DNA of 47,833 nucleotides, the filler included, from Jimgerdemannia flammicorona (lineage: Eukaryota): the NCBI GenBank assembly GCA_003990765.1. It is 2 parts of 2 records of this genome, joined end to end, with 100 filler letters (N's around TTAATTAATTAA, not from the genome) between each part and the next. Parts side by side here need not be neighbours in the genome. Positions count along the whole stretch, not along the records: positions 23,973 to 47,833 come from RBNJ01001051.1; 1 more part is not named here. One strand, 5' to 3'. Shown here in pieces: positions 1,253 through 47,660 of the stretch. The translations under genes and the position numbers were made by a program. The stretch's first letter is position 1. The number at the start of each line of letters is the position of its first letter. The notes beneath the pieces were generated by a model. It was not told where the DNA came from, ran no database searches, and saw only the letters and a list, made by a program, of their open reading frames with translations.

Positions 1253-1369
1253 TGTAACATACACAATTGACAATAGAGTACTGGTGACTGCTAAGATCAG
1301 ACGACATAATGGTGTGACAATCAAATAGACAGTCTGACCCATTAGGTGATCATCCCAAAAGAAGACAAG

Positions 1370-2446
1370 ATGATCCGAGCCAAAATGAAGACCATATTAT
1401 TTAAGGAATCATACTCCGCCTCAAGGATCAGCACCAAAGAACCAAGTACCCACCACACAATACCTCCCATTTGCTGAACCAACCAGACCTCCCGCTGCTC
1501 TACCCCTTTGCCTGGCCCAAAGACCCTGATCTTTGAAGCTATCAAGAAGGCCATCTGGTGCCCAGATACTTCCGAACACTTGAACTTCTATACTGAGGAC
1601 CTTGGACACTTTATCAACTACCAGTATATAATGACCCAACAGCTCAAAGACACTACCGAACGAATGACCCTCTGGCATGACTATGAAATCGGACACCGCC
1701 TTCGCAATAAGACTCAAGAAGATGACCAGGAAGACCTCATTGCCGAAATGTTAACCACCAGCTGGCTAATCAAAAGAGCCCTCCATGTCCATCAAATCTT
1801 CTGCCATATTCCCTGGGCTATAGCACACTTGCAAGGAGTAACAGCTGGCAGCCTCTCCTGCCTTTCAACTGAAGATGCTGACTGGATAGAATCTGAAGTA
1901 GCCAACTCTACTGGCAGCAACTGCGTTGCCATAGGAAGCCAACAAACCGAACCTACTCAGCCAGGTTTCCACACCACCCCACTCCGAGACAACCATCAAG
2001 GTCACCTAATAAGTCTTATGGAGATATTTGAAGGACCGCCCATTACCATAGAAGCACCCGTTGGAGCTACCCCAACCATCCACCACCTTGTCAGCCACAA
2101 TTCACACCTCATCATTTGGGAACCAAATCAAGAAGAAGCCCAAGAAGTTCCTGTCTTTAAAGAGGAGGCCCAAGAACTCCAAGGCCCTGCCCCTGAAGAA
2201 ACCCCCTCTGACACTGAAACTGACAAGTCTTCAGAAGAAGAAGAGGAGCAACAGAGAGTCTACCAGTCCTCTGTCCACATTCAAGCTGTTCAAGGGTTGG
2301 AGAATGTTATTGAAGATGACTGGCCACTTTTCTACCCCCTCACCTCTTGGCCGATGCTTCCCCCCTTTGAGGAGAGACATGATGAAGAATAAATCACAAT
2401 CCAGCAAGATTTGCCTGCCACAGACAAAGGGTATTATTTCCTCTAG
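1370..2446 (+). pseudogene. LTR-embedded accessory ORF (5' copy; consensus about 358 aa, acidic C-terminus, unknown function)
   Basis: ATG 1370 to TAG 2446; internal stops at 1475 (TGA) and 2390 (TAA) are sense codons (CGA, GAA) in the 3' LTR copy. Confidence 0.75.
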
Positions 2447-2480
2447 AGTACCACCCATCAGCCATGAGAACCCAGCTTTT

Positions 2481-2690
2481 GTCAGCAAGTCTGAATCCAG
2501 CATTGCTACCCAGTACCACCGTTTTCAGCATTTTGTCAGCAGGTCCAAATTCAGCGTTGCCACCCTCCACAACCATTTCTGGCAACAATCATCGTATCAT
2601 ATCAGCTCATCCGAATCCAGCATTGCTACCCAGTACCACTGTTTTCAGCATTTTGTCAGTAGGTCCGAATCCAGCATTGCTATCCCCTAC
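2481..2690 (+). repeat. Degenerate U3 tandem repeats (about 54-66 bp units), enhancer-like
   Basis: Four copies of a core like GTCAGCAGGTCCGAATCCAGCATTGCTACCC just upstream of the TATA box; repeated in the 3' LTR. Confidence 0.7.
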
Positions 2691-2810
2691 AACTCAATCC
2701 ATAGTAAACAATAGCCTACACTTCGCATCGTGCAAACCAATAGCATAAGTTCGCCACAACGTAGTATACCTTAGCCTTAGTCATGCCCCCTCCCCCATAG
2801 CTAGCAAACT

Positions 2811-2850
2811 TGTATAAATAACCCATATTCTTAGAGTGAATAAACCTCAG
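2811..2850 (+). promoter_or_regulatory. LTR TATA box and polyadenylation signal
   Basis: TGTATAAATAACCCA followed by AGAGTGAATAAACCTCAG; both motifs are also present in the Gypsy-2 LTRs. Confidence 0.65.
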
Positions 2851-3676
2851 CCAGATAGTTTTACAGAGAAAACACACTGCCTCCAAGAGACTGGATAAAT
2901 TCTGAGAACAAGATAACAACCTAGAGCAACAGATTGCTCGGAAGTTTGAGTTAAAGAATTTTCTCTTGCCACGGAAAGGAAACATTACCCGACTGCTGCC
3001 ATTCGACTGCCATTCGAGATTCGAGACCCAGCCAAAGATTAAAGAACCCACGGAACCCAAGTTACCCAGCCAAGGATTCAAGACCCAGAAACCCAAGGAG
3101 ACCCAGCCAAGAATTCTAGACCACGACTGCCATGCATTCAGACTGCCATTCAGACCACACATTCGACTGCCATTCGAGATTCAAGACTCAGAAAACCAAG
3201 GAACCCAAGGATACCCAGCCAAACAAGACCACAGCCTAAGACCCGCCAAGATACTCGAATGACTGCCAAAGACCCAAGTTATCCTGCCCTTTCAAGCTAA
3301 ACAAGACGGACAAACAAGCCGTCAACCTCCATTTTCCCGACCTACTGCGCCACAAACCGCTTTAATTGACTGCATAAAGAGCAAGACCATCAAGCCTGTC
3401 GTCGTCGCTTAAATTCAAGTCCGCCATCATTGCCAAGTTAATCGCTGCCAGGAAACTTAGCCAGCATAATCGCCACTCTTGTCCACTAAACAATTGAGCC
3501 ACTATCTTCAAACGATCTCCCGCTATTATCGATTACCACATGAATCGAACGATCTGTCACATGACCATCGACCCATAACTGTCACGAACGCACTCAGTTA
3601 TCCATCGCATGCTTCACCAAGTGACACATTGAGCTGTGCAGTCGAAGTTCAATATACATAACTGAATGCCACATTT

Positions 3677-3694
3677 TGGGGGCTCAACTGGGAA
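3677..3694 (+). promoter_or_regulatory. Primer-binding site, tRNA-Pro-like
   Basis: TGGGGGCTCAACTGGGAA 3 nt after the LTR; resembles the tRNA-Pro PBS TGGGGGCTCGTCCGGGAT of MLV. Confidence 0.8.
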
Positions 3695-7500: not shown

Positions 7501-8567
7501 ACCCTCATCAAGGAAAAGAAGGTGTCAACCTTGCCTTCATCCTTATGGAAGCTCTGGACCCTCTAGGAAAGACTGGATTCAATTACACAAGAAACTCAAA
7601 GATGGGAGCTCACTGGCCTTTCTTCAAACCAGAGCACATAGACTTCTCACCTACAATGGCAATAGCTGAAGTGCCATTTCTCAAAGCTCAACCAATTATC
7701 CAGGTCAAGCTGCTTTCCCCCTGGGCACAGCCATCTCTTGCACAAACAGAAGGATCAGTTGGTTATGATCTCTGCCTCTCCTACCAAGCAAGAATCCGAC
7801 CCAGAAGTACCAGGACATTTGACCTACAGATTGCACTCGCTATACCACCTGGGCATTATGGACAATTGGCCTCAAGATCCTCATTGGCAACCAAAGGAGT
7901 CACAGTAGAAGGAGGAGTCATCGATCAGGACTACCGAGGTCCCTTGAAGGTCATTATCCGCAATTCTAGTAGAACCAGCCAATTCTTCAGTTCTATGGAA
8001 GCCATCTGCCAAATCCTGTTTATCAAGACATCATAGCTGACCATCCAAGAGGTAGACCAACTAGAAGATACCAACAGAGGACAAGGAGGCTTTGGAAGCA
8101 CCAATAGAAATCTATGGACACCACCTATCAAGATGCATTTGGCAACAGTTGCTCAATTCCGACAAATGAGGCCCCATATCTGCCGCATAATCCGAGCAAG
8201 AGAAGACATCCTCCTGCAGCCCTACCAGCAAAAAGGCCTAGATGTGTACCTACCAGTAGAAGCAAACAACTTGATATTTGCACTATCACTGGAGCTTCAA
8301 AAGGAATACCACATCCTCCTGGCTGAAGAACAAATTCATGACCAGATGTCACCGATCCACATCCCTATCAGAAACTCGGGCTTCGAAGTGATAACTATCC
8401 CCAAGGGAACAACACTGGGATATTTCGAACCACTGATAGACACCTATGAGGAAGAAGTCTTCAAATTCTTGGGAAACGGCAAGTCCTCTCCAGTGAGACT
8501 GACAGTACCAGGGAGGAAGACTCAGCAAATTCAGCAATCAAAGCTGTTGACATCAAGACAACTCTAA
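4568..8567 (+). pseudogene. gag: Gypsy-1 Gag-protease-dUTPase polyprotein (disrupted)
   Basis: Capsid-like start MSYLQKFHGADNEDIKEFF; zinc knuckle CFNCRNQGYIQRNC; aspartic protease ILVDTGAAV (6273-6281) and YDLILGTDWL; one frame from about 4860 to 8567 with C>T-type stops. An N-terminal extension upstream of 4568 is possible. Confidence 0.88.
7690..8106 (+). pseudogene. dut: Trimeric-type dUTPase domain of Gypsy-1
   Basis: All five motifs visible: GSVGYDL, LASRSSLA, GGVIDQDYRG, ICQIL, RGQGGFGST; one internal TAG at 8034. Confidence 0.93.
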
Positions 8568-11223: not shown

Positions 11224-11548
11224 ACAATTCTGTTCACTCTGTCTGTGTCATCTCTGCTGGAGATATGATGGATGTTTCACTCGGAACTCAAGAAAGCCAA
11301 CAATGTTGGAACCAGACTCAAGCCCATCCACGTGACAGACATTGTTACTAAGAAATTGCCTCGGATTACAAGTAATACTATTTCCGATGGGTTTGAACCC
11401 CCAGCCGCGACTATGGGAGCCCTCACCCTAGACAAGGATGGCCAGTCCTCACAAATGCGCCAGCATTCTGCTCGTCCCTGGAGTTAAGACCACCCAACTC
11501 TGTGTAACCCTCACTGCCGAGAATGGCTCTAATTTTGCAAAGGGCAGA

Positions 11549-13969
11549 TGTGACATACACAATTGACAATGGAGTACTGGTGACTGCTAAGATCAGATGA
11601 CATAATGGCATGACAATCAAATAGACAGTCTGACCCATTAGGTGATCATCCCAAAAGAAGACAAGATGATCTGAGCCAAAATGAAGACCACATTATTTAA
11701 GAAACCATACTCCACCTCAAGGATTGGCACCAAAGAACCAAGTACCCACCACACAATACCTCCCATTCACCGAACCAACCAGACCTCCCACCACTTTACC
11801 CCTTTGCCTGGTCCAAAGACCCTAATCTTTGAAGCTATCAAGAAGGCCATCTGGCGCCCAGATACTTCCAAACACTTGAACTTCTACACTGAGGACCTTG
11901 GACACTTCATCAACTATCGGTATATAATGACCCAATAGCTCAAAGACACTACCAAATGAATGACCCTCTGGCATGACTATGAAATCGGACACCACCTTTA
12001 CAATAAGACTCAAGAAGGTGACCAGGAAGACCTCATTGCTGAAATGTTAACCACCAGCCGGCTAATCAAGAGAGCCCTCTGTGTCCATCAAATCTTCCAC
12101 CATATTCCCTGGGCTATAGCACACTTGCAAAGAGTAACAGCTGGCAGCCTCTCCTGCCTTTCAACTGAAGATGCTGACTGGATAGAATCTGAAGTAGCCA
12201 ACTCTACTGACAGCAACCATGTTACCGTAGGAAGCCAACAAACCGAACCTACTCAGCCAGGTTTCCACACCACCCCACTCCAAGACAACCATCAAGGTCA
12301 CCTAATGAGTCTTATGGAGATATTTGAAGGACTGCCCATTACTATAGAAGTACCCGTTGGAGCTACCCCAACCACCCACCACCTTGTCAGCCACAATTCA
12401 CACCTCATCATTTGGGAACCAAATCAAGAAGAAGCCCAAGAAGTTCCTGTCTTTAAAGAGGAGGCCCAAGAACTCCAAGGCCCTACCCCTGAAGAAACCC
12501 CCTCTGACACTGAAACTGACGAGTCTTCAGAAGAAAAAGAGGAGCAACAGAGAGTCTACCAGTCCTCTGTCCACATCCAAGCTATTCAAGGGTTGGAGAA
12601 TGTTGTTGAAGATGACTGGCCACTTTTCTACCCCCTCACCTCTTGGCCAGTGCTTCCCCCCTTTGAGGAGAGATATGATGAAGAAGAAATCACAACCCAG
12701 CAAGATTTGCCCACTATGGACGAAGGGTACTATTTCCTCTAGAGTACCGCCCATCAGCTGTGAGAACCCAGCTTTTGTCAGCAAGTCTGAATCCAGCGTT
12801 GCTACCCAGTACTACCATTTTCAGCATTTTGTCAGCAGGTCCGAATTCAGCATTGCCACCCTCCACAACTGTTTCTGGCAACAATCATCATATTATGTCA
12901 GCTCATCCGAATCCAGCGTTGCTACCCAGTACCACCATTTTCAGAATTTTGTCAGCAGGTCCGAATCCAGCATTGCTATCCCCTACAACTCAATCTGTAG
13001 TAAACAATAGCCTGCATCTCGCATCATGCAAACCAATAGCATAAGTTCACCACAACATAGTATACCTTAGCCTTAGTCGCACCCCCTCTCCCATAGCTAG
13101 CAAACTTGTATTAATAATCCATATTCTTAGAGTGAATAAACCTCAGCCAGATAGTTTTACAGAGAAAACCCACTGCCTCTAAGAGACCAGATAAATTCTG
13201 AGAACAAGATAACAACCTAGAGCAACGGATCGCTCGGAAGTTTGAGTTAAAGAATTTTCTCTTGCCACAGAAAGAAAATGTTACCCGACTGCTGCCATTC
13301 GACCGCTATTCAAGATTCAAGACCCAGCCAAGGATTAAAGAACCCACGGAACCCAAGTTACCCAGCCAAGGATTCAAGACCCAGAAACCCAAGGAGACCC
13401 AGCCAAGGATTCTAGACCATGACCGCCATGCATTCAGACTGCCATTTGGACTGCGCATTTGACCACCATTCAAGATTCAAGACCCGGAAAACCAAGGAAC
13501 CCAAGGATACCCAGCCAAACAAGACTGCAGCCTAAGACCCACCAAGATACTTGAACGACTGCCAAAGACCCAAGTTATCCCGCCCTTTCAAGCTAAACAA
13601 GATGGACGAGTGAGCCATCAACCTCTGTTTTCCTGACCTACTGCACCACGAACCACTTTAATTGACCACATAAAGAGCAAGACCATCAAGCCCGTCATCG
13701 TCACTTAAATTCAAGTCCGCCATCATCGCCAAGTTAATCGCCACCAGGAAACTTAGCCAGCATAATCACCGCTCTTGTCTACTAAACAATTGAGCCACCA
13801 TCGTCGAATGATCTCCTGCTATTATCGATTACTGCACGAATCGAACGACCCGTCACATGACCATCGACCCATAACCATTATGAATGCACTCAGTTATCCA
13901 TCGCGTGCTTCACCAAGTGATATATTGAGCTGTGCAGTCGAAGTTCAATATACATAACCGAATGCCACA
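11549..13969 (+). repeat. Gypsy-1 3' LTR
   Basis: TGTGACATACAC...AATGCCACA, preceded by purine-rich AAAGGGCAGA (putative PPT). Confidence 0.97.
11666..12742 (+). pseudogene. LTR-embedded accessory ORF (3' copy)
   Basis: Stops at 11672, 11936 and 11957 are CGA/CAG/CGA in the 5' copy. Confidence 0.75.
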
Positions 13970-17023: not shown

Positions 17024-18160
17024 CTAGTCGGTGGAGCGGCCCCAAGTCGTGGCGCCGATGCATATGCCAGCGTAAATCATCTGAATACCCAAACACCCAC
17101 CGTAACATATAGTAAATGACTTGTCATCTTCTCCCGGCGTGCGGTATGCAAGCAGCCGGTACCCGGTGTACGCCGCCCAAACTAAGAAACCCCACTCCAA
17201 CGCGACAGCCTCGAACGGTACGGTCCGCTCAGCGGCGGCGAGAGACCCCCTACCGACATAGGCTATGACGTTCGACACCGCGAACAGGAGGGGAATGGTA
17301 ATCCAGCGAGCCAATGTGTCTCCGAGAAGAATCGGGACTGTGACCCTGCCGAAGGCCGCGTCAACGTCGATGTCACGGAAGTCCTGGATGTGAACGATGC
17401 AGGAATGGAAGAAGCAAAAGGCCAGGCCCCATGCGTGCACCCAACCTTCGAGGAAGAATTTCGCGTCGTCGGCGTCGTCGACGACGACCAGGATCCTGTG
17501 GACAACAACGTGGTACAACCATGCGCCAAGACCAGGGAAGAGGTTCTTGAGGAAGGGGTGGCGGTCCCAGCCACCGATCTGGTAGAACGCGGTCAGGATT
17601 GCCCAAATGACGGTACCGAGGACGCCCGCCCACCAACCGGCGATGAAATACCCAACGATTGGAAACAGGATGCTGCAGACGCCGAATCTTAACTTGGCGC
17701 CTTCTACGGAAACCAGGCCGGACGGGATCGGCCGATCTGGCTTGTTGGCTTTATCCTCGTCGACCGTCGGGATTTGGGAGGCCCTGTGTTTGTTTATTGA
17801 GGATTGAGGTGTGAGGTGTTTAGCTATTGGCAGGAATTATCACCACGGTATATCAAAGCTACCAGGATAATACGTATATACTAACCAATCAAACCAATAT
17901 ATGAAGAACGAGCACCAGATCAGCAGACGCGCAAGACACGGCAGAACCACATGTAGAAAATCTGTCATGGATAGGCCCTGGGAGTGCCCGGAGGTGCCCC
18001 AGAACCTTTGGTAAAACGCACCAAGGGCCAACAACTGCGATGGTATCATTGTAGTATTCCAATCGCGGTAGGTCAGCCTGTAACCGATGAGCAATTCGCA
18101 ACGTATGGTATCCAAAGTGGACCTGACGGCCCGGCGTGTGCAATAGGGTATGTTGTACAT
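17024..18160 (-). CDS. UbiA-superfamily membrane prenyltransferase / putative UbiA-type terpene cyclase; exons 18160-17886 and 17783-17024 (344 aa)
   Basis: GTTAGT...CAG intron (17885-17784) joins FIYWFDW to ASQIPTVDEDKANKPDRPIPSG; second Asp-rich motif HIQDFRDIDVDAAFGRVTVP; several hydrophobic helices; CpG retained, no stops. Confidence 0.88.
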
Positions 18161-23872: not shown

Positions 23873-23972
23873 NNNNNNNNNNNNNNNNNNNNNNNNNNNN
23901 NNNNNNNNNNNNNNNNTTAATTAATTAANNNNNNNNNNNNNNNNNNNNNNNNNNNNNNNNNNNNNNNNNNNN
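23873..23972. other. Assembly gap with artificial linker
   Basis: 100-nt run of N with central TTAATTAATTAA (stops in all six frames). Confidence 0.97.
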
Positions 23973-24325: not shown

Positions 24326-27300
24326 CCCCCCCCTTGCAGTTCAGTGGCCCTTTTCAGCCACCAAGCTCATAGGCAGTGCAGCCTCTTAGGAAAGTCCACA
24401 AGGCCTAGACCTCCCTGAGTCACCAGTGCTGCAAGAGTATCCCAACTGATCTGGGATCTCCTCTCTGCCCAAATCTAATCTCTGGCCAGCTTTGTTAGTC
24501 TCTTTACCATCCAAGCTGGGATATCTAAGTGATAGGCCACATACCACAGCTTGGGGAACCAGTAGACATTCAAAATTGACACCTGACCTACTAGGGAGAT
24601 GTGGTGACCTTTCTAACCTCAAAGGGCCTCCCCCCACATGGTCACCTTCCTTTCCTACTATACACATGGCAAAACAGATCTATATATAGAAAGGAAGATG
24701 CCCAGATAATGTACCACCTCACCCATGAGGGCAATTATTCCAATGATATCCTCTCCCACTAGCCCATTCCCCAAAACTATTATCTCACACTTATGCCAGT
24801 TGAGTTTCACCCCAGAGTATACCTCATACTATTTCACCATATCTTTAAGTACCTCAATATCTGCTACTGATCCAAGTCCAACTACTATATCATCTGCAAA
24901 GGCCCCCACCTTCCACACCACACCATATATAGAGAGCCCCATCACCTTCTATAATATCCTATCCATAAAGGTTCCAATAAAAGAGCATAAAGGATAGAAG
25001 ACAGTGGGTCTCTCTGAGGAACTCCTCTCTCCAGGGGAAATGCCAAACCTCAGTGATCATTACACATCAGTGCAGCCCTACTGCCCTCCAACAGATTCAA
25101 TATAGCAGCTCAAAATTGTGAGGGAATACTGATTCTATCTAGCACCTTTCCTAGCCATACCTGCTGAACATAGTCATAGGCCTTCTCCTAGTCCAAAAAG
25201 ATCAGTCTTTCATCCAATCCACAAGCCTGTGTCCCTTCAATAATGCCATACACCCAGGTAGTCCCATCCCTGATATGTCTGCCTCCAATAAAGCCCTGCT
25301 GCTCCTCACTCAGCACCTGTTGGGCAACCTTCTGTAGCCTTGCAACAATCACCTTAGTCACCATCTTCCTGTCCATATCCAGAAGCATGATTGGCCTCCA
25401 GTTCTTCCAGTCCTCTCTCCTCTCCTTGTCTTTGTACAATAAGGCCACCAGCCCCAAGTTCTGCTCTCCAACCCACTTACTATTCAGAAGAACATGGTCA
25501 CAGAGGGCAGCCATCTCTCCTAACACTCCAGAGACCTTCGCCATCTTCTTCCAGAAGTCCCAAGGTAACCCATCCTCTCCTGATACTGTCCCAATCTTTG
25601 TTGTCACAAGGACTCTCTGGATCTCCTCCTCCTGGACTGGTATGATCAGGTCACCAAGTCCCTCTACTTGTAGTGATTCCCACTTCTCCAGCATATCACC
25701 AATTGTCTCTTCATCTGCACCCCCTTCCTCCTCACTCCACAAACCCCTCCATCTCTCCTTTAGTACTCCCAAGATCTGTTGCATGCCATACACCATTTCC
25801 CCCTCAGCATCAAAGACTCTATCCCATTGATGTCACACCCTCCTAGCTTGAAGGAGTCTAGACAAGTATCTAGTAGGCCACTCTCCCTCCTCAAGCCCCT
25901 GCTACTATAGTCTGGCAGCTATTCCTTTCATTTGAATCTCCTCCTTCTCTCTCAATATTCATTATAGCTCCACTACCTCTAATTTTGCCTACTCTAACCT
26001 CCAATCCTCCCCCTCTTTAGAAGAAAGCAAATCAGCTCATTCTATCTGCAATCTAATCAGTCTATTAGAGGTACACCTTACTTGCTTCCTTCTTTACCTC
26101 CCAGCCTCCCTACCAGCTCCTCCCCAATAAACCCTCATAGCCTCCTTCAACCTCATCCAACAGATACTCACAGAAGAACCCTCATGTATCTAGTTATTAA
26201 TCTTTACTTGAATATCCTCCACCCATAGGTCCCACAATGCCTTCTCAGCCAGCAGAGAGGAGTTAAGATACCAATGTCCAGGTCTATCTCCACTCTCCCC
26301 AAACTGCCTCTGCTCTAATAGCTCCCAGTGATTGGACCACAGGCACTATGCCACCTCCAAAGTCTCCCAAACATCAACACCCCAACATTTGGCTGTCAGA
26401 ATCCAGTCAATTCTCATGCCCAATCCATTCACCCAATGCATGTAGACCCTTGTATTACCCCACCATATTCTGCCCATATCTCCTAAGAAGCTAAGGTTCT
26501 CCACCTCCTCTCATGCATTCAGACCACTACTCCTTCTGCTGGCATACCTCTCTCCATCAGTTCTATCCACCTGTAGATCCTGCACCATATTAAAATCACC
26601 ACCCAGAATATCTACTCCTTCCTCTAAGAGAATACCCTCCTCCAGCAGATCTCTAATCCATGCAATCCTCTCACCCCTAACCACAGGGCAATAGCAGGAG
26701 CCAACCCTCACTGATTCCCACTCAGGCTGATACTATTCTCCCCAGACCAAATGGTCACCCCAGCTCCTAATGCTCTCTAAATCTCCTCTACCCTTCCTCA
26801 TCAGAATTGCCACTTTACCAATCCAAGCAGTAGCTCTACCCCATTCACTAGTCCACTCTATCTGATTCTCCTCACCCTCACACTATATATCCTATAGTAA
26901 AAAGAGATCAGCCTCCAATCCCTTAAGCCAAGTAAAAATGTTCTTATACTATCTGGATCTCTATAACCCATTCACATTCAGAGAGAAAATGTTAGTTATA
27001 CTGTTTATAAGAAATACTGTTGATTAATAATCACATCCTCTACAAATCCACATTCAACTCCTCTTGTGCCAAGTCCAAGTTATGTTCTGCAGCCAGTGCT
27101 CTCTCTTCAGCTGCCTGTACCTCCAACCCTATCAGAAGTTCAGCCAACTCCCCATCTTCTTTTTCCTTGAAGTCCATATGATATTCCAGGCATGCCTCCT
27201 ATCAGAGCTACAACCCATAATGCTCTGCCCAACAGTAAGCAGCTTGCTCACCAGCAACAACTGCCAGCTCAGCCTCCCTCACCTTATCAACCTCATAACC

Positions 27301-31860: not shown

Positions 31861-33091
31861 TATGACAGACCACAAAACATAGCAATCTTGAAACTCAATC
31901 AGGTGATGTGAATATTAGTCTAGCATAGCAATTAGCAACTATTGCTGCAGAGAATATATAAATAACCCAGATAGCTAAAGAAAGGAAAAACCCTGACAGT
32001 GGCTATCACTCTGACAGTGGCTGTCACCCTGATAGTAGCTGTCACCCAGACAGTGAATGTTACCCCATAAATAGCACTCTATAGTTAGTCAGATAGCAAC
32101 CAAGATAGCAACCACAATATATAAATTACCCCATAGACAAGAGAGAATAAACCTCAGTTCCAAAATATAAAGCAAAAGACAAATCTGCCTACTATACTTC
32201 AAGAGATATACCTGCCAAAAGCCACTTGATCCAGGAAGAATTGCAACACTTAGGAGAAATGCCTGCTCTATAGCTACTACTAGGAGATTGTGAGCTTTAC
32301 CTCTTTCCCACTCTGGTCCACTTTCTGATATAAAGAATGAGTCTATTTTTGGTTTGCTTGCTAGATAAGCCTGAAGATTTGCTGCCCAAGTTCAAGGAAG
32401 AACTTTGCCACCAGTGGAAACCACCAATTCAGAAGAATCTGTGCCATCATATTCCCAGAAGAGCCACTGATTCAGAAGAATCCATACCATCTAAGTAGTA
32501 TTCTCAGTTGAAGCCAAATCCATGTCAACTGCCATTTTCAAGTTATCCACATTCCTAGTTGAAGCCACTGATTCAGGAAGAATCTATGATATCCAAGTCA
32601 TCTGAGTTATCTATGCCATCCAAGTTATTCGTTGTTTCCAGTGAGCTCATGTAATTGAGTTATCTGCCAAATCGCATAAGAAGTCTGCCTACACTACATA
32701 GAGATCATCGCACCAAGATCGTCATGCTATATAGAGATCATCACATCAAGATCATCATGCTATACAGAGATCATCGCACCAAGACTGTCACCCAGAAATC
32801 ACATACTTTTGGAGATTGTCTCACTACACAAAATTGTGCCATTCCCAGTTGACCCAAGAAGGAAATCCATTCACACACAAATCGCTACTATACCCAGAGA
32901 ACTATCCTAATTAGGAAATAGACATACAAATTACTTACAGATATCTAACTTTGACTATTATACCACTAAATACCAAGGACCTTAAGAATCTTAGAACATT
33001 TTATTGCTTTTTGACAAAGTAACTGGGGGCTCAAGCCAAACTACATCAACTCCCAATCTTGTAATTTGCTCTATTGAGCTGGCACATTACA
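31861..33091 (+). repeat. Gypsy-2 5' LTR (1231 bp)
   Basis: TATGACAGACC (TG mutated to TA)...CACATTACA; one more 18-bp unit than the 3' LTR. Confidence 0.95.
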
Positions 33092-33093
33092 TT

Positions 33094-33111
33094 TGAGGGC
33101 TCAACCAGGAA
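33094..33111 (+). promoter_or_regulatory. Primer-binding site, tRNA-Pro-like
   Basis: TGAGGGCTCAACCAGGAA, a G>A-decayed version of the Gypsy-1 PBS. Confidence 0.75.
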
Positions 33112-33625: not shown

Positions 33626-36600
33626 ATGGCCACCTCATTGCCAACCTTTGCAGAAGACCCAGAAGAAGACTCCAGAGAATTCCTTGATGGAATTGAAGGA
33701 ATCACAGCTCTAAGGAACTTCTCAGATGAAAGAAAAATCACCATCTACAAGGCCCAGCTCAGAGAACCAGCCAGAGGGATTTTCTATCAAACAGCAGACA
33801 ATCCAGATTCAGAACTGGCAAGACAGATACAAGCTGCAATGTCCAAGGAGCAAGAATATGAGGTCATGGTCCACTGGCTCATTGAAAAGTATGCAGGAAA
33901 TGAAACCTGCCACAAGGCTCAAGAATCCATTATGAAGATGAAGATGAATCTTAGAGAATCACCCAGGGCCTTCTTCACAAGAATCCAGAAGAGAATGCAT
34001 ACAGCTGGATTCAATGCCACCAACCAAGACATCATAGGTCCAATGACCTTCATGAATGGAATTCTGCCAAACATTGCCCAGCATGTCCGCACCCTAGGCA
34101 TCAGAAGGTCTGAGAAGCAAGTAGATGTAGCCCAAGGATTCTTTGATATCAGATAAGGAACTATCTGGAGTGATCATGACAAGAAAGAAGACAAGGAAGA
34201 CATCCTGGTCAAGGCCCTACAAGGACTCCTTCAAGAATAAGAAAGGTTTGAAGAAAGAAGACCAGCCAAAGAAGAAAAGAAGGACAGAAGTGAAATCCAA
34301 GACCTCAGCTCCAAGTTGGACTAATTGGTTGGACAAATTGAAAAACTCACCACATGCAAAAATTGGAGTTACCAAGACAACAGAGGATACCCACCACAGA
34401 GAAGTCAAGATTATCCACTAAGAGATAGTAGGAATTACCAGCAAGAAGAAAGAAGATACCCTGTCCAAGACAGAGCTCAAGTCCAATGCTTCCATTATAG
34501 ATAATTCAGACACTATGCCACTGAATGTAATAACAAAAGAAGTGACCAAAGGGACTCAGAACCACTGAACTGAAGGAATGACACTCAGTACAAGAAGACT
34601 AAAGCCCATCCTGTTGAAGATTATGAGGAAGCAAGCAACAGTGAAGACTATAGTGATCTAGACTTATACCCTACCAAGGTTATTACCTGAAAAACAGTCT
34701 ACCCAGCAGAGAAGAGGAAGAGACCTATTTGAAGGCCATTTAGGAATATCAGCAGAAGAATCATTCAAGAAGAGGATGAAAAACATGAAGAAGAATAAGT
34801 AGAAACACCTCTCTGAACCCCCTCACCTTTTGTCTCTGAAACAAATGAGCTGCTACCAGAAGATGAGAACCTGTTGCCCCAAAGCCCAAGAAGAAGTACT
34901 CCCCAAAGACCATGCCTAGAGACATCTACAATGAAGCCTGGCAGAAGATTCAAGAGGCTAAGATGGAAGTCTCTCTCCTGCAGTTCCTGTAACTGACACC
35001 AGCTGGAGTCTGAAACAAATTGCTGAGAACAACCAGGTCTAGCACTGGCCAAGTCCCAATCCCACAGCAAGAACCAGCCTCCATCCCTGTCCAAGCAGCC
35101 AAGAGACATGTCAGCACCTACTTACATAGAGATATTGGAGGACAAAAAGTGAAAATTCTCATAGACACTGGAGCAGCTATCTGTGTCATTACCAAAAAAT
35201 TCCTGAATACCCTCCAATGGCCCATTGATGGACCATCCAACCTCAGCATCATAGTAGCAGATGGAGCCCAAACTCAACCCCTGGGAGAAGTACGAAATAT
35301 CACTATTTCCTTAAGACACATTCAGTTTTCTATTCCCAAAGCCATTGTCACCAAAGCTGTCACCTATGACATGATCCTTGGCACCAACTGGATGAAGGAA
35401 ATGAATGCAGTTGTTAATATCAGTCAACAAGTACTCAAGTTTGACTACTAAGGCAAAAAGTACAGAGTTAAGATGACCAGCTCTGAGTAATCAAAGAAGA
35501 AGAAGAAGGTTACTATCTAAGAGGAATATACCAGCAGTGAAGAGTCTACCATAGAAGAAGAAGAGGAGTCTGAAGATGGAAATGATCCCAGACTCAATCC
35601 CCAAATTAACCTGGTGGATGATAGACCAGAAGACAATGTATGGGCCAAGAACACTATCCCTATCACCATTAGAGCCATTGCAGGAGAAATCAAAGGATGT
35701 CCTACCTATCTCAAGAGACACAAGTGTCCTCCAAGATAATGGGAACAAGAAAATCACCTGGCACAGCCTGCCCAGAATGCAGAAGGAAGAAGAAGAAATA
35801 CAGACATGTTCCAGAAACACCTGCAACTGAAGCTGCAGAAGTATAAGCAATTTGGAGATAAGAATCATCTGAGGAAGAAGAAACTCCTGACCAAGAAGTT
35901 CCTGAAGGAGAAACACCCAAAGAAGAAGAGGTCCCTGAACTCATTCCCTGGGATGATCCTTGATGGACACCATCCAAAGATAATGACCCTTGGAATATGG
36001 AAGAAGAATCCAGCATAATCACCATTATTCCCAAGAAAGAAACTCACCAAGAGAGAGCTTTTCAGTTAGGAAGATGCCCACACCAAATGGTCTTCTACTC
36101 TCCCCGAGACTGCTGCTATCAGTGCCATCTACTAGACCAACAAGAAAGACAGAGACCCCAGAGACCAGAATCCCCAAACACACTTGCACAGTCAACTATC
36201 TTCCAAGAAATTACTACTAAGTTATAAAGCAGATTCAGGGGATAAGGCTTCTTTACTCAGACAGAAATATATCCCCTGTCTACTCTTCCATCCACCTATG
36301 ACCAAGATGGATACTGATTCCCAAGACAATAAGAGATCAATGACCAAAAACATCATTTTCAAGCTATGGGATATTGCAACCATAGAAGACACCCTGACTG
36401 CTGAGACTGCAGGCATCAGAAGATCCATCTCAGTCATGATGTTGCAGTTCATACCTTGAAGAGAAGAGATAACTGAAGCCAGATCTGAAAAAGCCAGATC
36501 TGAAAGAACTAGACCAAAAAGTCAGGAAGAAGAACCCTTAAGATCTATGATTTAGGAGAAGACATCCTAGCTCTCATCAGGCATGCAACCCACCAGAGAT

Positions 36601-37580
36601 GGGCAGAGGATGCCACCAGTTTTATAGAAGCCCTTGACCCTATAGGAAGAAGGGGAATCAATTATCTCTGAGACCCCTCTACTGGAGCCAGATGGCCACA
36701 CCTCAACCTTAGAGCTTAGAGGCTCTCTGCTAGTGGAGCTTCAGCCTTAGGAAGGCCTGAACTCAGTAAGGATATTGCCCAGTATGCCCTACTACACCCC
36801 AAGGCCAAATCTCTGACCAAAGCCCACCCAGAAGATGTAGGATATGATCTTCACAGTCTGGAGGATAAATCTATCAAGCCTGGAAAAACCTTCATGATCA
36901 GAACTGGATTGGCTATACAGCCACCCCAAGGATCTTATATCCAACTGACCTCAAGGTCTGGACTTGCCAGACAAGGAATAACTGTAGAAGGAGGAACCAT
37001 TGATCCAGGATATACAGGCGAAATCAAGGTTATCCTACACAACAGCAGTACAGAATGGCACCGAATCATTAGAGGACAGAAGATTGCCCAAGCAGTTTTC
37101 ATGAAGGTCAGAATCCCATAATTACAAGAAGTGTCCAAACTGACTGAAGGAACAAGACAAGCCAAAGGATTCAGAAGTTCAGACCAGAAGGAGATACATC
37201 TCCTTCAAGTCAACCACCTCAAGAGGAATGCTCCCTAGCAAGTGTACTGCCAACCAGTCAGACTACACAAGAACCTTATCCTGGAGCCTGGAGAACAAAC
37301 CACCTTCGAAATCTTTGCACCACCTGACCCCAGAAACCTTTTCTTTGAACTCAAAGAAGATATCTCATACCTGGATATAGAGGGACACACATTCTCTGAC
37401 AAGATGAACCCAGTACACTCCCAGGGAATCAACCAAAGTTGGGAGACCATCATCTTGCCAAAAGGAACCATTATAGGACACCTGGTACCTTTTCTCAACT
37501 GAACTCATAGGGAAGTTTATGAACTAAACCTATTGGGAAATGACAAAAGGTCTCAGAAGAAAGGAAAGACCTCTCTGTGA
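33626..37580 (+). pseudogene. gag: Gypsy-2 Gag-protease-dUTPase polyprotein (disrupted)
   Basis: MATSLPTFAEDPEEDSREFL capsid start; decayed knuckle about 34487-34528; ILIDTGAAIC (35164-35172), YDMILGTNW. Confidence 0.88.
36780..37182 (+). pseudogene. dut: dUTPase domain of Gypsy-2
   Basis: DVGYDL, LTSRSGLA, GGTIDPGYTGEIKV, KIAQAV, RQAKGFRSS. Confidence 0.92.
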
Positions 37581-39007: not shown

Positions 39008-40067
39008 ACCAGAAGAAGGGTGTCCCAAGGAACTACACTCTAAAGAAAGCTCCTCAGACCATCAAGGTACAAGAAGATCTCATCTGAAAAGAATATCAGA
39101 AAGCTCATCAAGGACAGGCGAATATAGAAGAAAAGTTGCAAACAATGCACCAACATTGGCCCAACCTCAGAACACAAGTCTGGGACATAGTTAAGAAATA
39201 TGACACCTGCCAGAAGTACCAAGGAAGGAAGAACTATCAAGCACCATTGCAACCAATTCCCCCACCCACTCACATCTTTCAAAGATGGAGAGTAGATGTA
39301 ATCAGACCTCTACCAGTTACACTAAGAAGAAATAAATTTATTCTTGTATTTGTAAAACATCTGACCAAGTGGCCTGAGGCTTTCCCAATGGAAATCACAG
39401 ATGCCTTAACCATTGTAGGCCTTCTCTATAGACTCACACTCAGATATAGACCCCCAGAAGAACTTATCTCTAACTAAGGCACAGAATTCATCAACAACAT
39501 AATTACAAGTTATGCCTGAATTCACAAATCCACCTCAAACAAACTACATTATACTACCCTCAGATCAATGGTATGACAGAAAGAATGAACCAGACCATCA
39601 AGAAAGGACTTGCTCAAGTCAATCCTACTGATTGGGACCTCTGCTTATCTGAGATCCTATGGGAAATTCAGAACACCCCTGCTGCCTCTACCAAACAAAA
39701 GCCATTCAAAATGATGTTTGCCAAGAGAACCCAAACTGCTGACCATGAGAATCTTGGAGACCTCCTCAAGAAGGCAGAACAGTTATGTAATCAGGCCCAA
39801 GGACAGATTATCAAAGCCTAAGAAAGACAAAAGAAGTATTATAATCAGAAACAGAAAGATCAGGAGATCAAGATTGGTAACCAAGTACTAGTTTGAAGAA
39901 GTATAATTGAAACAAACTTTGCCACCAAACTGGAGTCCAAATGGGAAGGACCATATCTTGTATACAATATCAGAGAAGCCAGCATCTATATAAGAAGTAT
40001 AGATGGATGCATCTTAAGAACTCCAGTCCACATCAATTGCCTCAAGATATACCTATACAAACCATGA
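39004..40067 (+). pseudogene. Gypsy-2 integrase
   Basis: WPNLR..YDTCQK, VDVIRPLP, LTKWPEAF, NGMTERMNQT, KWEGPY; one internal frameshift near 39520. Confidence 0.9.
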
Positions 40068-40570
40068 CTCAAAGGATAGATCAATGCCTCCAGACCCTTA
40101 TCCTCGGCTCTTTCCAAGCCCTGCCAATTCCCCTGCTCCAGTTCCATCAACTTGAAGAAACCCCTGTACAGTTGATCCAGAAATATCAAGAGAACCTTGC
40201 CATTGCCCAGAGGCTGCTTCAGATCCACCAGCTATAAGCCTTCTACAATATTGGACAGCTATTGATAGAACAACCTTACCTAAGAAGCCCAGCTGGACTT
40301 ATTCTCAGAGAAGTAAGAACTGCCAAATGAATCTACACCTTGTACAATCAAAATGTTGGAGCCCTGGTGCAGTCTCACTTCTGCCTTAGTGATATTCATC
40401 TGATGAATGAGACTACCTTCCAGAGTATCCTCCAACAACTAGACATCCTATTTCCTGAAGAGCAAGAAGAATATCCAGAGCTAGAATGGAGTGACCCTGG
40501 TATAGACAATGAAGATGATGGGACAGGTATAGATGCAGAAGATGCTTATGCTTATTGGAATGATGACTAA
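40064..40570 (+). pseudogene. Accessory ORF after integrase (about 168 aa, acidic tail, unknown function)
   Basis: ATG 40064 overlaps the integrase TGA; one frame to TAA 40570 with two C>T-type stops (near 40235 and 40328). Confidence 0.72.
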
Positions 40571-40609
40571 AGAATAGCCTGAGACAGACTACTCTTTAGT
40601 GGGAGCTGA

Positions 40610-41823
40610 TGTGACAGACCACAAAACATAGCAATCTTGAGACCCAATCAGATGATGTGAACATTAGCCTAGTATAGTAACCAGCAACTATTGCTGCAGA
40701 GAATGTATAAATAACCCAGATAGCTAAAGAAAGGAAAAACCCTAACAGTGGCTGTCACCCTGACAGTGGCTGTCACCCAGACAGTGAATGTTACCCCATA
40801 AATAGCACTCTATAGTTAGTCAGATAGTAACCAAGATAGTAATCACAATGTATAAATTACCTCAGAGACAAGAGTGAATAAACCTCAGTTCCAAAACACA
40901 AAGCAAAAGACAAGTCTACCTACTATACTTCAAGAGATACACCTGCCAAAAGCCACTTGATCCAGGAAGGATTGCAATACTTAGGAGAAATGCCTGCTCT
41001 ATAGCCACTACTAGGAGATTGTGAGCTTTGCCCCTTTCCCACTCCAGTCTACTTTCTGATACAAAGAATGAGTCCATTTTTGATTCGCTTGTCAGATAAG
41101 TCTGAAGATTTACTGCTTAAGTTCAAGGAAGAACTTCACTGCCAGTAGAAGCTGCTGATTCAAAAGAATCTGCACCATCATATTCCCAGAAGAGCTGCTG
41201 ATTCAGAATAATCTGCACCATCCAAGTAGTATTCCCAGTTGAAGCTGAATCTGTATCAACTACCATTTTCAAGTTATCTGCATTCTTAGTTGAAGCTGCC
41301 TATTCAGGAAGAATCTGCAACATCCAAGTCATCCAAGTTATCTACACCATCTGAGTTATTCATTGTTTCCAGTGAGCTCATGTAGTTGAGTTATCTGCCA
41401 AATTGCATAAGAAGTCTACCTATGCTATACAGAGATTGTCACACCAAGATTATCATGCTATACAGAGATTGTTGTATCAAGATCATCGCACTACATAGAG
41501 ATCATCACACTAAGACCATCACTCAGAAATCGCATACTTTTGGAGATTGCCTCACTATATAAAATTGTGCCATTCCCAGTTAACCCAAGAAGGAAATCCA
41601 TTCACACACAAATTGTCACTACATCCAGAGAACTGTTCTAATTAGGAAATAGACATACAAATTACTTGCAGATATCCAGCTTTGACTATTATACTATTAA
41701 ACACCAAGGACCTCAGAAATCTTAGAACATTTTGTTGCTTTTTGACAAAGTAACTGAGGGCTCAAGCTAAACTACATCAATCTCCAATCTTGTAATTTGC
41801 CTCCATTGAGCCAGCACATTACA
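40610..41823 (+). repeat. Gypsy-2 3' LTR (1214 bp)
   Basis: TGTGACAGACC...CACATTACA. Confidence 0.95.
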
Positions 41824-45900: not shown

Positions 45901-47660
45901 GTGGTTTGAATACTACCAGTTCCAAGTCATGCCTTTTGGTTTGACCAATGTACCAGCAATATTCCAATATCTGATAAATGACATCTTTGGACCACTACTT
46001 AATATTTATATCCTTGTGTATATTGATAATATACTAATCTATAGTGAAACAGTAGAGTTACACTATACCCACCTCAGGCAGATACTAACCCTTCTGTAAG
46101 AATACCAGCTCAATACCAAGATGAGTAAATATAAGTTCTATCAAGATCAGATTGAGTACTTAGGACATATCATCTCTGCTGAAGGTATCAATATGGACTC
46201 CTGAAAGATATAAGCCCTCAAGGATATTTCTATCCCTACTACTCTTAAGCTACTCCAGCACTTTCTGGGTATTACTAGTTACTACTGAAGGTTTATCTAA
46301 GAATACTCTGCTATTGCAGCCCCACTGACCAGTCTGGCCCACAAAGAAGTGAACATCAAGACTGAATAGACCCTCAAGTGTACCTAGGCTATAGACCATC
46401 TCAAGAGACTTCTTACTGAGGTCCCAGTGCTAATTACACCTGACCTTACTAGGCTATTTACTCTGATCACAGATGTCTCTGATATTGCTATTAGGATAGT
46501 GCTTAGTCAAGAAGATCACCCAGTAACCTACCTTTCCCAAAAGCTCAAGTCAGCTGAGACTCAGTATACTACTCATAAGAAGAAACTCCTGGCCATTGTT
46601 ACTGCACTCCAGAAATGGCACCATTTCCTCCTAGAACAACTATTTGTAGTCTATACTAATTACTATACTCTGTAGTATATTTATACATAGCCTATACTAA
46701 CCTATAGATAAGCCAGCTAGATGAAAATTATTATTAACTTTGATATAGAAATCAAGTATATCCCAGGCAAAACCAATCATATGGCTGATGGTTTCTCCAG
46801 GTATATAGAAGATGAACTTATCTTTATGGTCAAGGTAATTAGAGACCTTATCCAGATAATCAAGAATGGCTACCAATAGGACAGCCTTCTGGTGAAATTT
46901 CTTCAATTCTGTCAAGACCCAGAGACTGAGGTCCCAGAACATATAAGGCAAATGTTCAAAAGATTCACTTATTATAATAGACTTATCTACAGGACTATGA
47001 CAGAGTGGTTGTATCCAATAATAATACTCTGTGGCTCAAGATTATATAGAAACTCTATGATACTTCTGTAGCAGGACATTTTGGTTTTGAAAAGACCTAC
47101 AATCTCCTCTCAAGAGAGTTCTACTGGTCAAAGATAACTAAGAATATCAAAGACTTTGTGGCCTCATATGAGATATACCAAAGATTCAAAAGTAATAACA
47201 AGCTACCTATAGGACTTCTGCAATCTCTGCCTATCTCAAGTTATAACTAGAACCAGATTGCAATGAACTTTATTGTCCAGCTCCCCAAGACTAAGGTAGG
47301 ATGAGATGACATTGTAGTATTCATAGACTGTCTAAACAAATAAGCTCATTTTTCACCCACCAAGACCACTGCTACAGTATTAGAGATTGCTGAGATCTTT
47401 CTCAATCAAGTATTCAGACTATATAGCATGCCTAGCACCATTGTATCTGACCAAGATACCAAGTTTACAAGCAACTTCTGAAAGGTATTCTTCTCTCTCC
47501 ATAGAACTAAGCTGAAGTTCTTCACTGCCTACTACTCCCAGACTAATGGTCAAATCAAGAAAACCAATAAGACTCTCAAGCAGATACTTAGCATCTTCTG
47601 CTGTTACAAGTAAAATAATGGGACAAATACCTAGTCCATACCAAGTTTGCCTATAATAAT

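What the first reader, a model, noticed from the sequence alone, without database searches (positions are those of the whole stretch)
40064..40570. Env-position ORF of Gypsy-2 looks homologous to the LTR ORF of Gypsy-1
Seen by eye: Gypsy-2 L*AFYNIGQLL...REVRTAK*IYTLYNQNVGALVQSHFCLSDIHLMNETTFQSI versus Gypsy-1 LWHDYEIGHRL...RLIKRALHVHQIFHHIPWAIAHLQGVTAGSLSCLSTEDADWI: a Y-x-IG-x-x-L motif, then A-x-x-[IV]-[YH]-x-[LI]-[YF], then a helical segment and an acidic tail. No signal peptide or TM helix, so it is not an Env. Inference: one accessory gene, located outside the LTR in one element and absorbed into U3 in the other, which would explain much of the 1.2 versus 2.4 kb LTR difference. The motif recalls uncharacterised expanded protein families of glomeromycete-type fungi (from memory, unverified).
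Basis: inference. Interest (0 to 1): 0.78.

Follow-up and report, generated by a model that had tools for sequence, protein, structure and literature searches.

The report
Movable accessory gene of Gypsy retrotransposons
Two jumping genes here carry distant versions of the same unnamed extra gene, once just before the terminal repeat and once inside it, each behind a TATA-like box, which hints that these elements may encode their own switch as some complex retroviruses do, although its function is untested.

Summary
The ORF is real: 168 codons, two stops in this copy, open in a sister subfamily, pN/pS 0.23-0.24 like integrase. It is homologous to the Gypsy-1 LTR ORF, but only through intermediates: direct BLAST and HHalign fail, whereas a profile of three other lineages of this genome hits both (E 1e-20; 5e-8 for the open sister; 6e-6 for this copy; 0 of 1000 shuffles). 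Both AlphaFold models show seven helices with matching spacing; no known fold or Pfam family. Five lineages, including a chromovirus, carry it, two after pol and three in U3. The gene tree departs from the RT tree (AU p 0.04-0.05), so Gypsy-1's gene is probably not Gypsy-2's gene simply absorbed. The ORF covers about 80% of the LTR size difference. A TATA-like box lies 62-86 nt upstream in all five lineages, and four end in acidic-aromatic tails. Best reading: a promoter-plus-ORF cassette encoding a Tas-like transactivator (inferred, about 40%). Not Env. The glomeromycete link was not confirmed. This scan noted the family before on other DNA of this genome.

The parts
40064..40570 (+). Gypsy-2 accessory ORF (168 codons; ~133-aa helical core plus acidic-aromatic tail); this copy broken by two stops
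40064..40462 (+). Conserved seven-helix core shared by five Gypsy lineages
40463..40567 (+). Acidic tail with aromatic residues (13 D/E, 5 W/F/Y, no K/R in the last 33 residues); candidate activation domain (inference)
40064..40067 (+). ATGA overlap of ORF start with the pol stop
   Evidence: 46 of 50 family copies ATGA, 4 ATAA (one mis-extended row dropped from 51)
39987..39994 (+). TATA-like box 77 nt upstream of the ORF start, inside the integrase C-terminal coding region; candidate internal promoter
40598..40609 (+). Purine-rich tract before the 3' LTR
40610..41823 (+). Gypsy-2 3' LTR (1214 bp)
31861..33091 (+). Gypsy-2 5' LTR (1231 bp); LTR-pair K2P 0.138
40850..40882 (+). TATA plus AATAAA block (27 nt apart) marking the U3/R region of the Gypsy-2 LTR
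1253..3673 (+). Gypsy-1 5' LTR (2421 bp); LTR-pair K2P 0.081
1460..2446 (+). Gypsy-1 LTR ORF, 5' copy (start inferred; core 1508-1921; broken)
1398..1405 (+). TATA-like box 62 nt upstream of the Gypsy-1 ORF, 5' LTR
2812..2844 (+). TATA plus AATAAA block of the Gypsy-1 LTR, 1560 nt into the LTR and downstream of the ORF
11549..13969 (+). Gypsy-1 3' LTR
11756..12742 (+). Gypsy-1 LTR ORF, 3' copy (core 11804-12217; broken)
11694..11701 (+). TATA-like box upstream of the Gypsy-1 ORF, 3' LTR

Best explanation
Shown: the two ORFs belong to one family of accessory proteins (about 135-aa, seven-helix core, mostly with an acidic-aromatic C-terminal tail) that was kept under purifying selection in five Ty3/Gypsy lineages of this genome, after pol in two and inside U3 in three (my odds for homology about 0.93). 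Inferred: the gene travels as a cassette with its own TATA promoter 62-86 nt upstream, is read from a short subgenomic RNA that ends at the LTR polyadenylation signal, and so works on either side of the purine tract; it moved or was exchanged between lineages by recombination at the 3' end. Inferred and untested: the protein is a nuclear regulator of the element's own transcription, the helical core binding LTR DNA or chromatin and the tail activating, in the manner of foamy-virus Tas with its internal promoter.
For: Homology: C+D+E profile hits G1 (60 bits), open G2 sister (19 bits), window copy (12.5 bits), 0 of 1000 shuffles each; every leave-one-out test significant, the window copy weakest (2 of 1000); 57 of 61 G2-family loci score above the 99.9th percentile of 12,287 real six-frame decoy chunks; nearly gap-free colinear alignment; models with helices 2-18/34-69/72-81/86-99/103-108/113-117/121-134 and 3-16/31-67/74-83/85-97/101-106/112-116/120-132. 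Selection: pN/pS 0.19-0.33 in frame against 0.21 for integrase, 0.69-1.55 in the two other sense frames. Promoter: TATA-like box at -77 (51 of 53 copies), -80 (52 of 54), -86 (35 of 37), -62 (15 of 15), -82 (26 of 28), -75 (28 of 28), against 2-6% of 60-nt windows along the same elements; in pol it is spelt with rare codons (ATA 5 of 33 Ile, TTA 5 of 53 Leu in the sister's RT). Tails: 13-52 acidic residues with aromatics in G2, G1, D, E. Tas has an N-terminal DNA-binding and a C-terminal acidic activation domain and is driven by an internal promoter (PMC7390438, passages).
Against: Direct G1-G2 comparison is not significant; the window's own copy scores 9.1 bits on window chunks against 8.4 for the best decoy, and only 19 of 61 G2 loci beat the single best decoy, which may itself be a decayed member. 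The two models share lineages C, D, E in their alignments and could not be superposed. No fold or family match supports DNA binding; the core is not basic (7-19 K/R against 8-17 D/E). Lineage C has only an 18-residue tail with 3 acidic residues. The TATA pattern and window were chosen after seeing the sequences. No transcript evidence. Tree conflict is marginal (AU p 0.041 and 0.050).
Confidence: 0.42

Rival explanations
1. Same homologous cassette, but the protein counters host silencing or acts on RNA (blocks methylation or RNA interference, or aids export or packaging) rather than activating transcription directly.
For: Copies decay by C-to-T change in CpG or CpA context (69 of 176 and 54 of 143 transitions in the two LTR pairs), so the host silences these elements; TE accessory proteins that counter silencing are known (VANC; PMC13547354, passages); the core is not basic; exchange across distant lineages suits a factor that needs no lineage-specific DNA target.
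Against: No similarity to any known suppressor in Pfam or PDB; acidic-aromatic C-termini recur in four lineages, which fits activation domains (general knowledge).
Confidence: 0.27
2. In Gypsy-2 and lineage C the ORF is made by termination-reinitiation on the genomic RNA, stoichiometric with Pol, and serves as a particle or integration cofactor; the TATA-like boxes are incidental.
For: ATGA overlap in 46 of 50 copies, kept across a one-codon length difference of the integrase end; lineage C's start lies 11-23 nt inside the pol end; AUGA and AUGnUGA are known reinitiation arrangements, also in fungal victoriviruses and a non-LTR element (PMC5972666, passages).
Against: It cannot serve the three LTR-borne lineages, whose starts lie hundreds of bases below the pol stop; the TATA-like box is kept at a similar distance in both coding and non-coding settings. 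An overlap can be mere compaction.
Confidence: 0.15
3. The proteins are unrelated amphipathic helical proteins and the resemblance is convergence or chance.
For: Direct comparisons fail; shuffles do not keep helical periodicity.
Against: Bridging lineages C and D were found by position, not by similarity; lineage E came up blind in 786 kb of six-frame sequence at E 2e-7 to 3e-3; real-sequence decoys score far lower; colinear alignment and matching helices.
Confidence: 0.05
4. An Env or env-like membrane protein.
For: Only its position between pol and the 3' LTR in Gypsy-2 and lineage C.
Against: Best 19-residue hydropathy 0.17-1.24 in six representatives; 153-171 residues in the internal forms; soluble all-helical models; no Pfam hit.
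Confidence: 0.02

Closest known systems
Sense additional ORFs between pol and the 3' LTR of LTR retrotransposons (PMC7264820, first third of text read; PMC5408684, abstract and section 3.4 read)
   Same: Conserved extra ORF in most copies, sense strand, 3' of pol; the same ORF type shared by distant retroelements, as in rotifers; dUTPase-bearing elements.
   Different: No TM domain and no enzyme family; unnamed protein; three lineages hold it wholly inside U3, which the parts read do not describe.
Foamy-virus Tas (Bel1) with its internal promoter (PMC7390438, passages read)
   Same: 3' regulatory-position gene, TATA-like box inside the upstream coding region, folded N-terminal part plus acidic C-terminal tail.
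   Different: No sequence or fold match to Tas was found; host elements are Ty3/Gypsy without env; promoter use, DNA binding and activation untested; position varies between lineages.
MMTV sag/naf ORF in U3 (PMC9412291, passages read)
   Same: Long ORF inside U3 with an LTR promoter of its own, giving a long LTR; element with dUTPase.
   Different: Sag is a membrane superantigen (recalled); no homology; here the gene also exists outside the LTR in sister lineages.
DUF3102 (PF11300) and ParB/Spo0J-type helix-turn-helix proteins
   Same: Long helix ending in x-IG-x-x-L followed by two short helices and A-x-R; 2 and 3 rows named DUF3102 among the top 50 Foldseek rows of the two models; Spo0J tops the PDB list.
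   Different: All E-values 0.3 or worse; Spo0J Z 3.0, rmsd 4.8 over 93; HHalign with 6 DUF3102 proteins E 0.17. A lead only.

Membership tests
Env / env-like ORF3 | Transmembrane helix | tested here: not met
   Best Kyte-Doolittle 19-mer 0.17-1.24 in six representatives
Env / env-like ORF3 | Signal peptide | tested here: inconclusive
   No predictor on hand; hydropathy alone is low
Env / env-like ORF3 | Position between pol and 3' LTR | tested here: met
   Gypsy-2 and lineage C; not Gypsy-1, D, E
Conserved sense additional ORF of LTR retrotransposons | Present in most copies and under purifying selection | tested here: met
   150 of 150 scored candidates match in each of five searches; pN/pS 0.19-0.33. 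Copies lacking the ORF were not counted; 30 of 30 integrase ends sampled by pattern fell in lineages G2, C or D
Foamy-virus Tas (works-like comparison) | Internal promoter upstream of the gene | tested here: inconclusive
   Conserved TATA-like box at -62 to -86 in five lineages; no RNA data
Foamy-virus Tas (works-like comparison) | C-terminal acidic activation domain | tested here: inconclusive
   Composition fits in G2, G1, D, E, poorly in C; activity needs an experiment
Foamy-virus Tas (works-like comparison) | Sequence-specific binding to LTR and internal promoter | not testable with these tools
   No binding assay; no fold match
Foamy-virus Tas (membership) | Sequence homology to Tas/Bel1 | tested here: not met
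   No Pfam family for any of 16 core members or 3 full-length members
U3-encoded ORF (MMTV sag-like layout) | ORF wholly inside both LTRs, upstream of the LTR TATA | tested here: met
   G1 (ORF 208-1194, TATA 1560), D (ends about 1100, TATA 1276-1306), E (258-1355, TATA 1544); U3/R border inferred from motifs, not mapped
DUF3102 / ParB-type HTH | Significant profile or structural match | tested here: inconclusive
   recurring but non-significant
Chromovirus (lineage E, outside the window) | Integrase chromodomain | tested here: met
   PF00385 E 1.7e-14 in one full element; 5-bp TSD, LTR 2034 bp; RT outside the G1/G2/C/D clade
   No named hit; the exhaustive HMMER search used the narrow G2 profile only and the word-indexed search misses distant relatives

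The most novel reading that the evidence does not exclude
Ty3/Gypsy retrotransposons of this probably fungal genome carry a self-contained promoter-plus-transactivator cassette, a retrotransposon counterpart of foamy-virus Tas built on an unnamed helical (possibly HTH-like) domain; it has been swapped between lineages as distant as chromoviruses and moved into U3 more than once, which makes each of the thousands of solo LTRs a complete transcription unit for a trans-acting regulator.
Probability: 0.33. Interest if true: 0.85.

Novelty: new variant of a known kind. Interest (0 to 1): 0.62.

Why it matters
Extra ORFs of LTR retrotransposons are known, but mostly as env-like, enzymatic or antisense genes outside the LTR. 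Here one unnamed family sits on either side of the purine tract in sister lineages (C: 460-bp LTR, ORF outside; D: 1.5-1.6-kb LTR, ORF inside, same PBS and purine tract) and also in a chromovirus. That gives a natural series for how a gene enters U3, the layout of MMTV sag. If the upstream TATA is an internal promoter and the tail activates, the complex-retrovirus logic of a self-encoded regulator exists in Metaviridae, and solo LTRs here are genes rather than leftovers. Each step can be tested with 5'-end mapping and reporter assays.

Tried and rejected
Direct comparisons: tblastx of the two elements gave no hit between the two ORFs; BLASTP E 8.6; HHalign 0.9% and 0.4%; profile G1+D against G2 3.3-3.5 bits with 9-18 of 400 shuffles as high; HHalign G2+E against G1+D 10.6%. 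Wider relatives: 7, 1, 6 and 19 hits, all unnamed metagenome proteins of these lineages except one immunoglobulin-repeat chance hit; ESM Atlas best scores 0.77 and 0.87, below the trusted level; metagenome contig scan gave 1 locus of 67 candidates, a Gypsy-2-type ORF directly after integrase. Families and folds: Pfam, PHROGs and PDB sequences nothing significant; Foldseek no E below 0.001 in three runs; VIA-align best Z 5.8, 5.4, 3.9; absence shows no new fold. DUF3102: no match in G000; six members from 602 bacterial genomes did not match significantly. Homodimer prediction: no answer, alignment not used. A second integrase-end pattern gave 22 matches against 86 for its control and no new lineage. 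The first real-decoy test was discarded because decoy chunks overlapped family ORFs; redone. A longer Gypsy-1 start about 90 nt further up was rejected: that stretch has pN/pS 0.75. The 300-nt spacers between pol and LTR in G1 and D show no coding signal (0.53-0.72 in the sense frames) and no remnant of an internal copy. No DNA similarity between LTR 5' parts and pol ends. Literature: eight answered full-text searches (plus 104 for foamy virus) listed no description of this family; I saw listings only for most papers, subscription papers are not covered and no supplements were opened.

Full report
Observation. The window holds two complete Ty3/Gypsy elements on different contigs of G000 (an N-filled join lies at 23873-23972). 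Gypsy-1 (G1) has LTRs at 1253-3673 and 11549-13969, TSD ATAT, K2P 0.081. Gypsy-2 (G2) has LTRs at 31861-33091 and 40610-41823, TSD ATAG, K2P 0.138. Both read gag, protease, dUTPase, RT/RNase H, integrase. The ORF in question runs 40064-40570, 168 codons with stops at 40235 and 40328. The host was not determined; a fungus is my inference and that of earlier notes.

It is a real gene. The search of G000 scored 150 of 1589 candidates and all matched. They fall into the window's subfamily (A, every listed copy with stops) and a sister (B, 56-61% identical). The 20 B copies I fetched, chosen because they were listed as open, give a 169-171-residue frame. Pooled pN/pS is 0.24 (30 A copies) and 0.23 (21 B copies), against 0.21 for the integrase end and 0.73-1.22 in the other two sense frames; the G1 LTR ORF gives 0.23 (core, 36 copies) and 0.30 (C-terminal part), G1 non-coding LTR 0.68-0.91 (pairs are not independent).

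Direct homology fails. BLASTP gives E 8.6, HHalign 0.9% and 0.4%, and the G2 profile scores G1 at 1.4 bits with 30 of 400 shuffles as high.

Bridging lineages rescue it. A DNA pattern for the integrase end found 1854 sites; the 30 returned as loci fell into three groups: G2 (9), C (12) and D (9). C has a 153-residue ORF directly after pol and LTRs of about 460 bp; D has its ORF inside LTRs of 1.5-1.6 kb; the two share primer site and purine tract. A four-lineage profile run blind over 786 kb of fetched DNA then found a fifth lineage, E, at E 2e-7, 3e-6 and 3e-3. One full E element has 2034-bp LTRs with the ORF inside both, a 5-bp TSD and a chromodomain (E 1.7e-14). A profile of C+D+E only, with no sequence of either window lineage, scores G1 60.4 bits (E 1e-20), G2B 19.2 (5e-8) and the window's copy 12.5 (6e-6), each with 0 of 1000 shuffles as high. 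Leave-one-out tests give C 36, D 48, G1 53, E 29, G2B 21 bits (0 of 1000) and the window copy 8.9 bits (2 of 1000). HHalign of G2+C against G1+D reaches 90.9%. Against real sequence, 57 of 61 G2-family loci exceed the 99.9th percentile (6.7 bits) of 12,287 decoy chunks, but only 19 exceed the top decoy (15.3 bits, possibly a decayed member), and on window chunks the window copy leads the best decoy by only 9.1 to 8.4 bits. AlphaFold models of an open G2B core (pLDDT 79) and of the window's G1 core from an alignment without G2 sequences (pLDDT 83.5) both show seven helices with matching lengths and spacing; they share C, D and E rows and could not be superposed. I put homology at about 0.93.

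LTR size. A block of TATA plus AATAAA 27-29 nt later lies at LTR position 1560 in G1, 241-257 in G2, 250 in C and 1276-1306 in D; E has a like TATA at 1544. All LTR-borne ORFs end upstream of it, so they lie in U3 (border inferred from motifs). The whole G1-G2 size difference is upstream of this block. The G1 ORF, 987 nt from its inferred start, is 75% of the U3 difference and 82% of the total. Only about 400 nt of it matches the G2 ORF.

History. By RT, G1 and G2 are sisters (99/98), C and D form a clade (100/100), and E lies outside. By the accessory core G1 groups with D (92/92); holding G1+G2 or C+D together costs AU p 0.041 and 0.050 (one long-branched D copy left out), which is marginal. 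Profile scores agree: D-G1 47-52 bits, C-D 10-15, G1-G2 about 1, while RT identities are 43%, 65% and 52-56%. G1 and D also share a second stretch behind the core (E 2e-4). Exchange of the 3' module between lineages fits better than one shift within the G1/G2 pair; direction and number of moves are not resolved.

Expression. Two signals compete. The G2 start overlaps the pol stop as ATGA in 46 of 50 copies (4 ATAA; one mis-extended row dropped), across a one-codon length difference in the integrase end; such overlaps drive termination-reinitiation in viruses and one non-LTR element (PMC5972666, passages). But every lineage also has a TATA-like box 62-86 nt above the start, kept in 51 of 53, 52 of 54, 35 of 37, 15 of 15, 26 of 28 and 28 of 28 copies, where 2-6% of 60-nt windows along these elements hold the pattern. 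It lies in integrase codons in G2 and C, spelt with rare codons, and in non-coding LTR in G1, D and E. The pattern was chosen after seeing the data, and earlier notes of this scan gave me the foamy-virus lead. An internal promoter explains all five lineages, reinitiation only two. No RNA data were available.

Function. Not Env: best 19-residue hydropathy 0.17-1.24. No Pfam, PHROG or PDB family and no fold match. DUF3102 rows recur in both Foldseek lists and Spo0J tops one, and HHalign pairs the x-IG-x-x-L and A-x-R motifs with DUF3102, but at E 0.17: a lead only. G2, G1, D and E end in acidic tails rich in aromatics, the make-up of acidic activation domains (general knowledge); C has only a short one. 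With its own promoter, a folded core and such a tail, I commit to a Tas-like regulator of the element's transcription at about 0.42 (Tas layout: PMC7390438, passages), ahead of an anti-silencing or RNA role (0.27) and a Pol-coupled particle cofactor (0.15).

Known and new. Extra sense ORFs after pol and ORF sharing between distant retroelements are known (PMC7264820, first third read; PMC5408684, abstract and section 3.4); a U3 ORF with its own promoter is known from MMTV (PMC9412291, passages). My searches listed no account of this family or of a U3-borne gene in Ty3/Gypsy elements; coverage is limited and supplements were not opened. Database relatives are unnamed metagenome proteins of the same lineages; the one metagenome locus obtained has the ORF directly after integrase. 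The glomeromycete link stays unconfirmed. The scan has noted this family in several other windows of this genome. Verdict: observation confirmed, interpretation partly supported, a new variant of a known kind, interest 0.62.

Noticed in passing
window 7686-8108 and 36765-37187; L115, L121, L212: All five lineages, the chromovirus E included, carry a dUTPase upstream of RT (PF00692 E 9e-23 for Gypsy-1).
   Followed up: partly
window 40746-40795: Three 18-nt repeats in Gypsy-2 U3 holding the inverted repeat TGTCA-N3-TGACA (40753-40765), between two TATA-like boxes; a candidate binding site for a dimeric regulator.
   Followed up: no
window 11225-11548; L108 after integrase: Gypsy-1 and lineage D keep a 300-400 nt spacer between pol and the purine tract with no coding signal; role unknown.
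   Followed up: partly
window 6567-7620 and 35700-36700: Long inserts between protease and dUTPase in both elements, partly alike in tblastx (41-42 bits), two tested pieces without Pfam match.
   Followed up: no
window LTR pairs: Transitions dominate (176 of 181 and 143 of 147 changes); CpG context leads in the Gypsy-1 pair, CpA in the older Gypsy-2 pair.
   Followed up: partly
window 3676-3693 and 33092-33110: Both primer sites resemble the tRNA-Pro primer site of MLV (recalled, not tested); lineages C and D use another, E a third.
   Followed up: no
window 17024-17836 (-): GC-rich UbiA prenyltransferase ORF (PF01040 E 2e-20), probably a host gene.
   Followed up: no
window 25188-25832 (-) and 45914-46651 (+): A LINE-type RT fragment and a third Gypsy RT fragment that groups near lineage E and other outside elements.
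   Followed up: no
window 23873-23972: Scaffold gap of N with a TTAATTAATTAA filler; the two elements lie on different contigs.
   Followed up: yes
window 12742-13140 versus L121 8396-8700: The core promoter block of Gypsy-1 is 83% identical over 52 nt to that of lineage C, and E's resembles Gypsy-2B's (80% over 40 nt), further signs of LTR mosaicism.
   Followed up: partly
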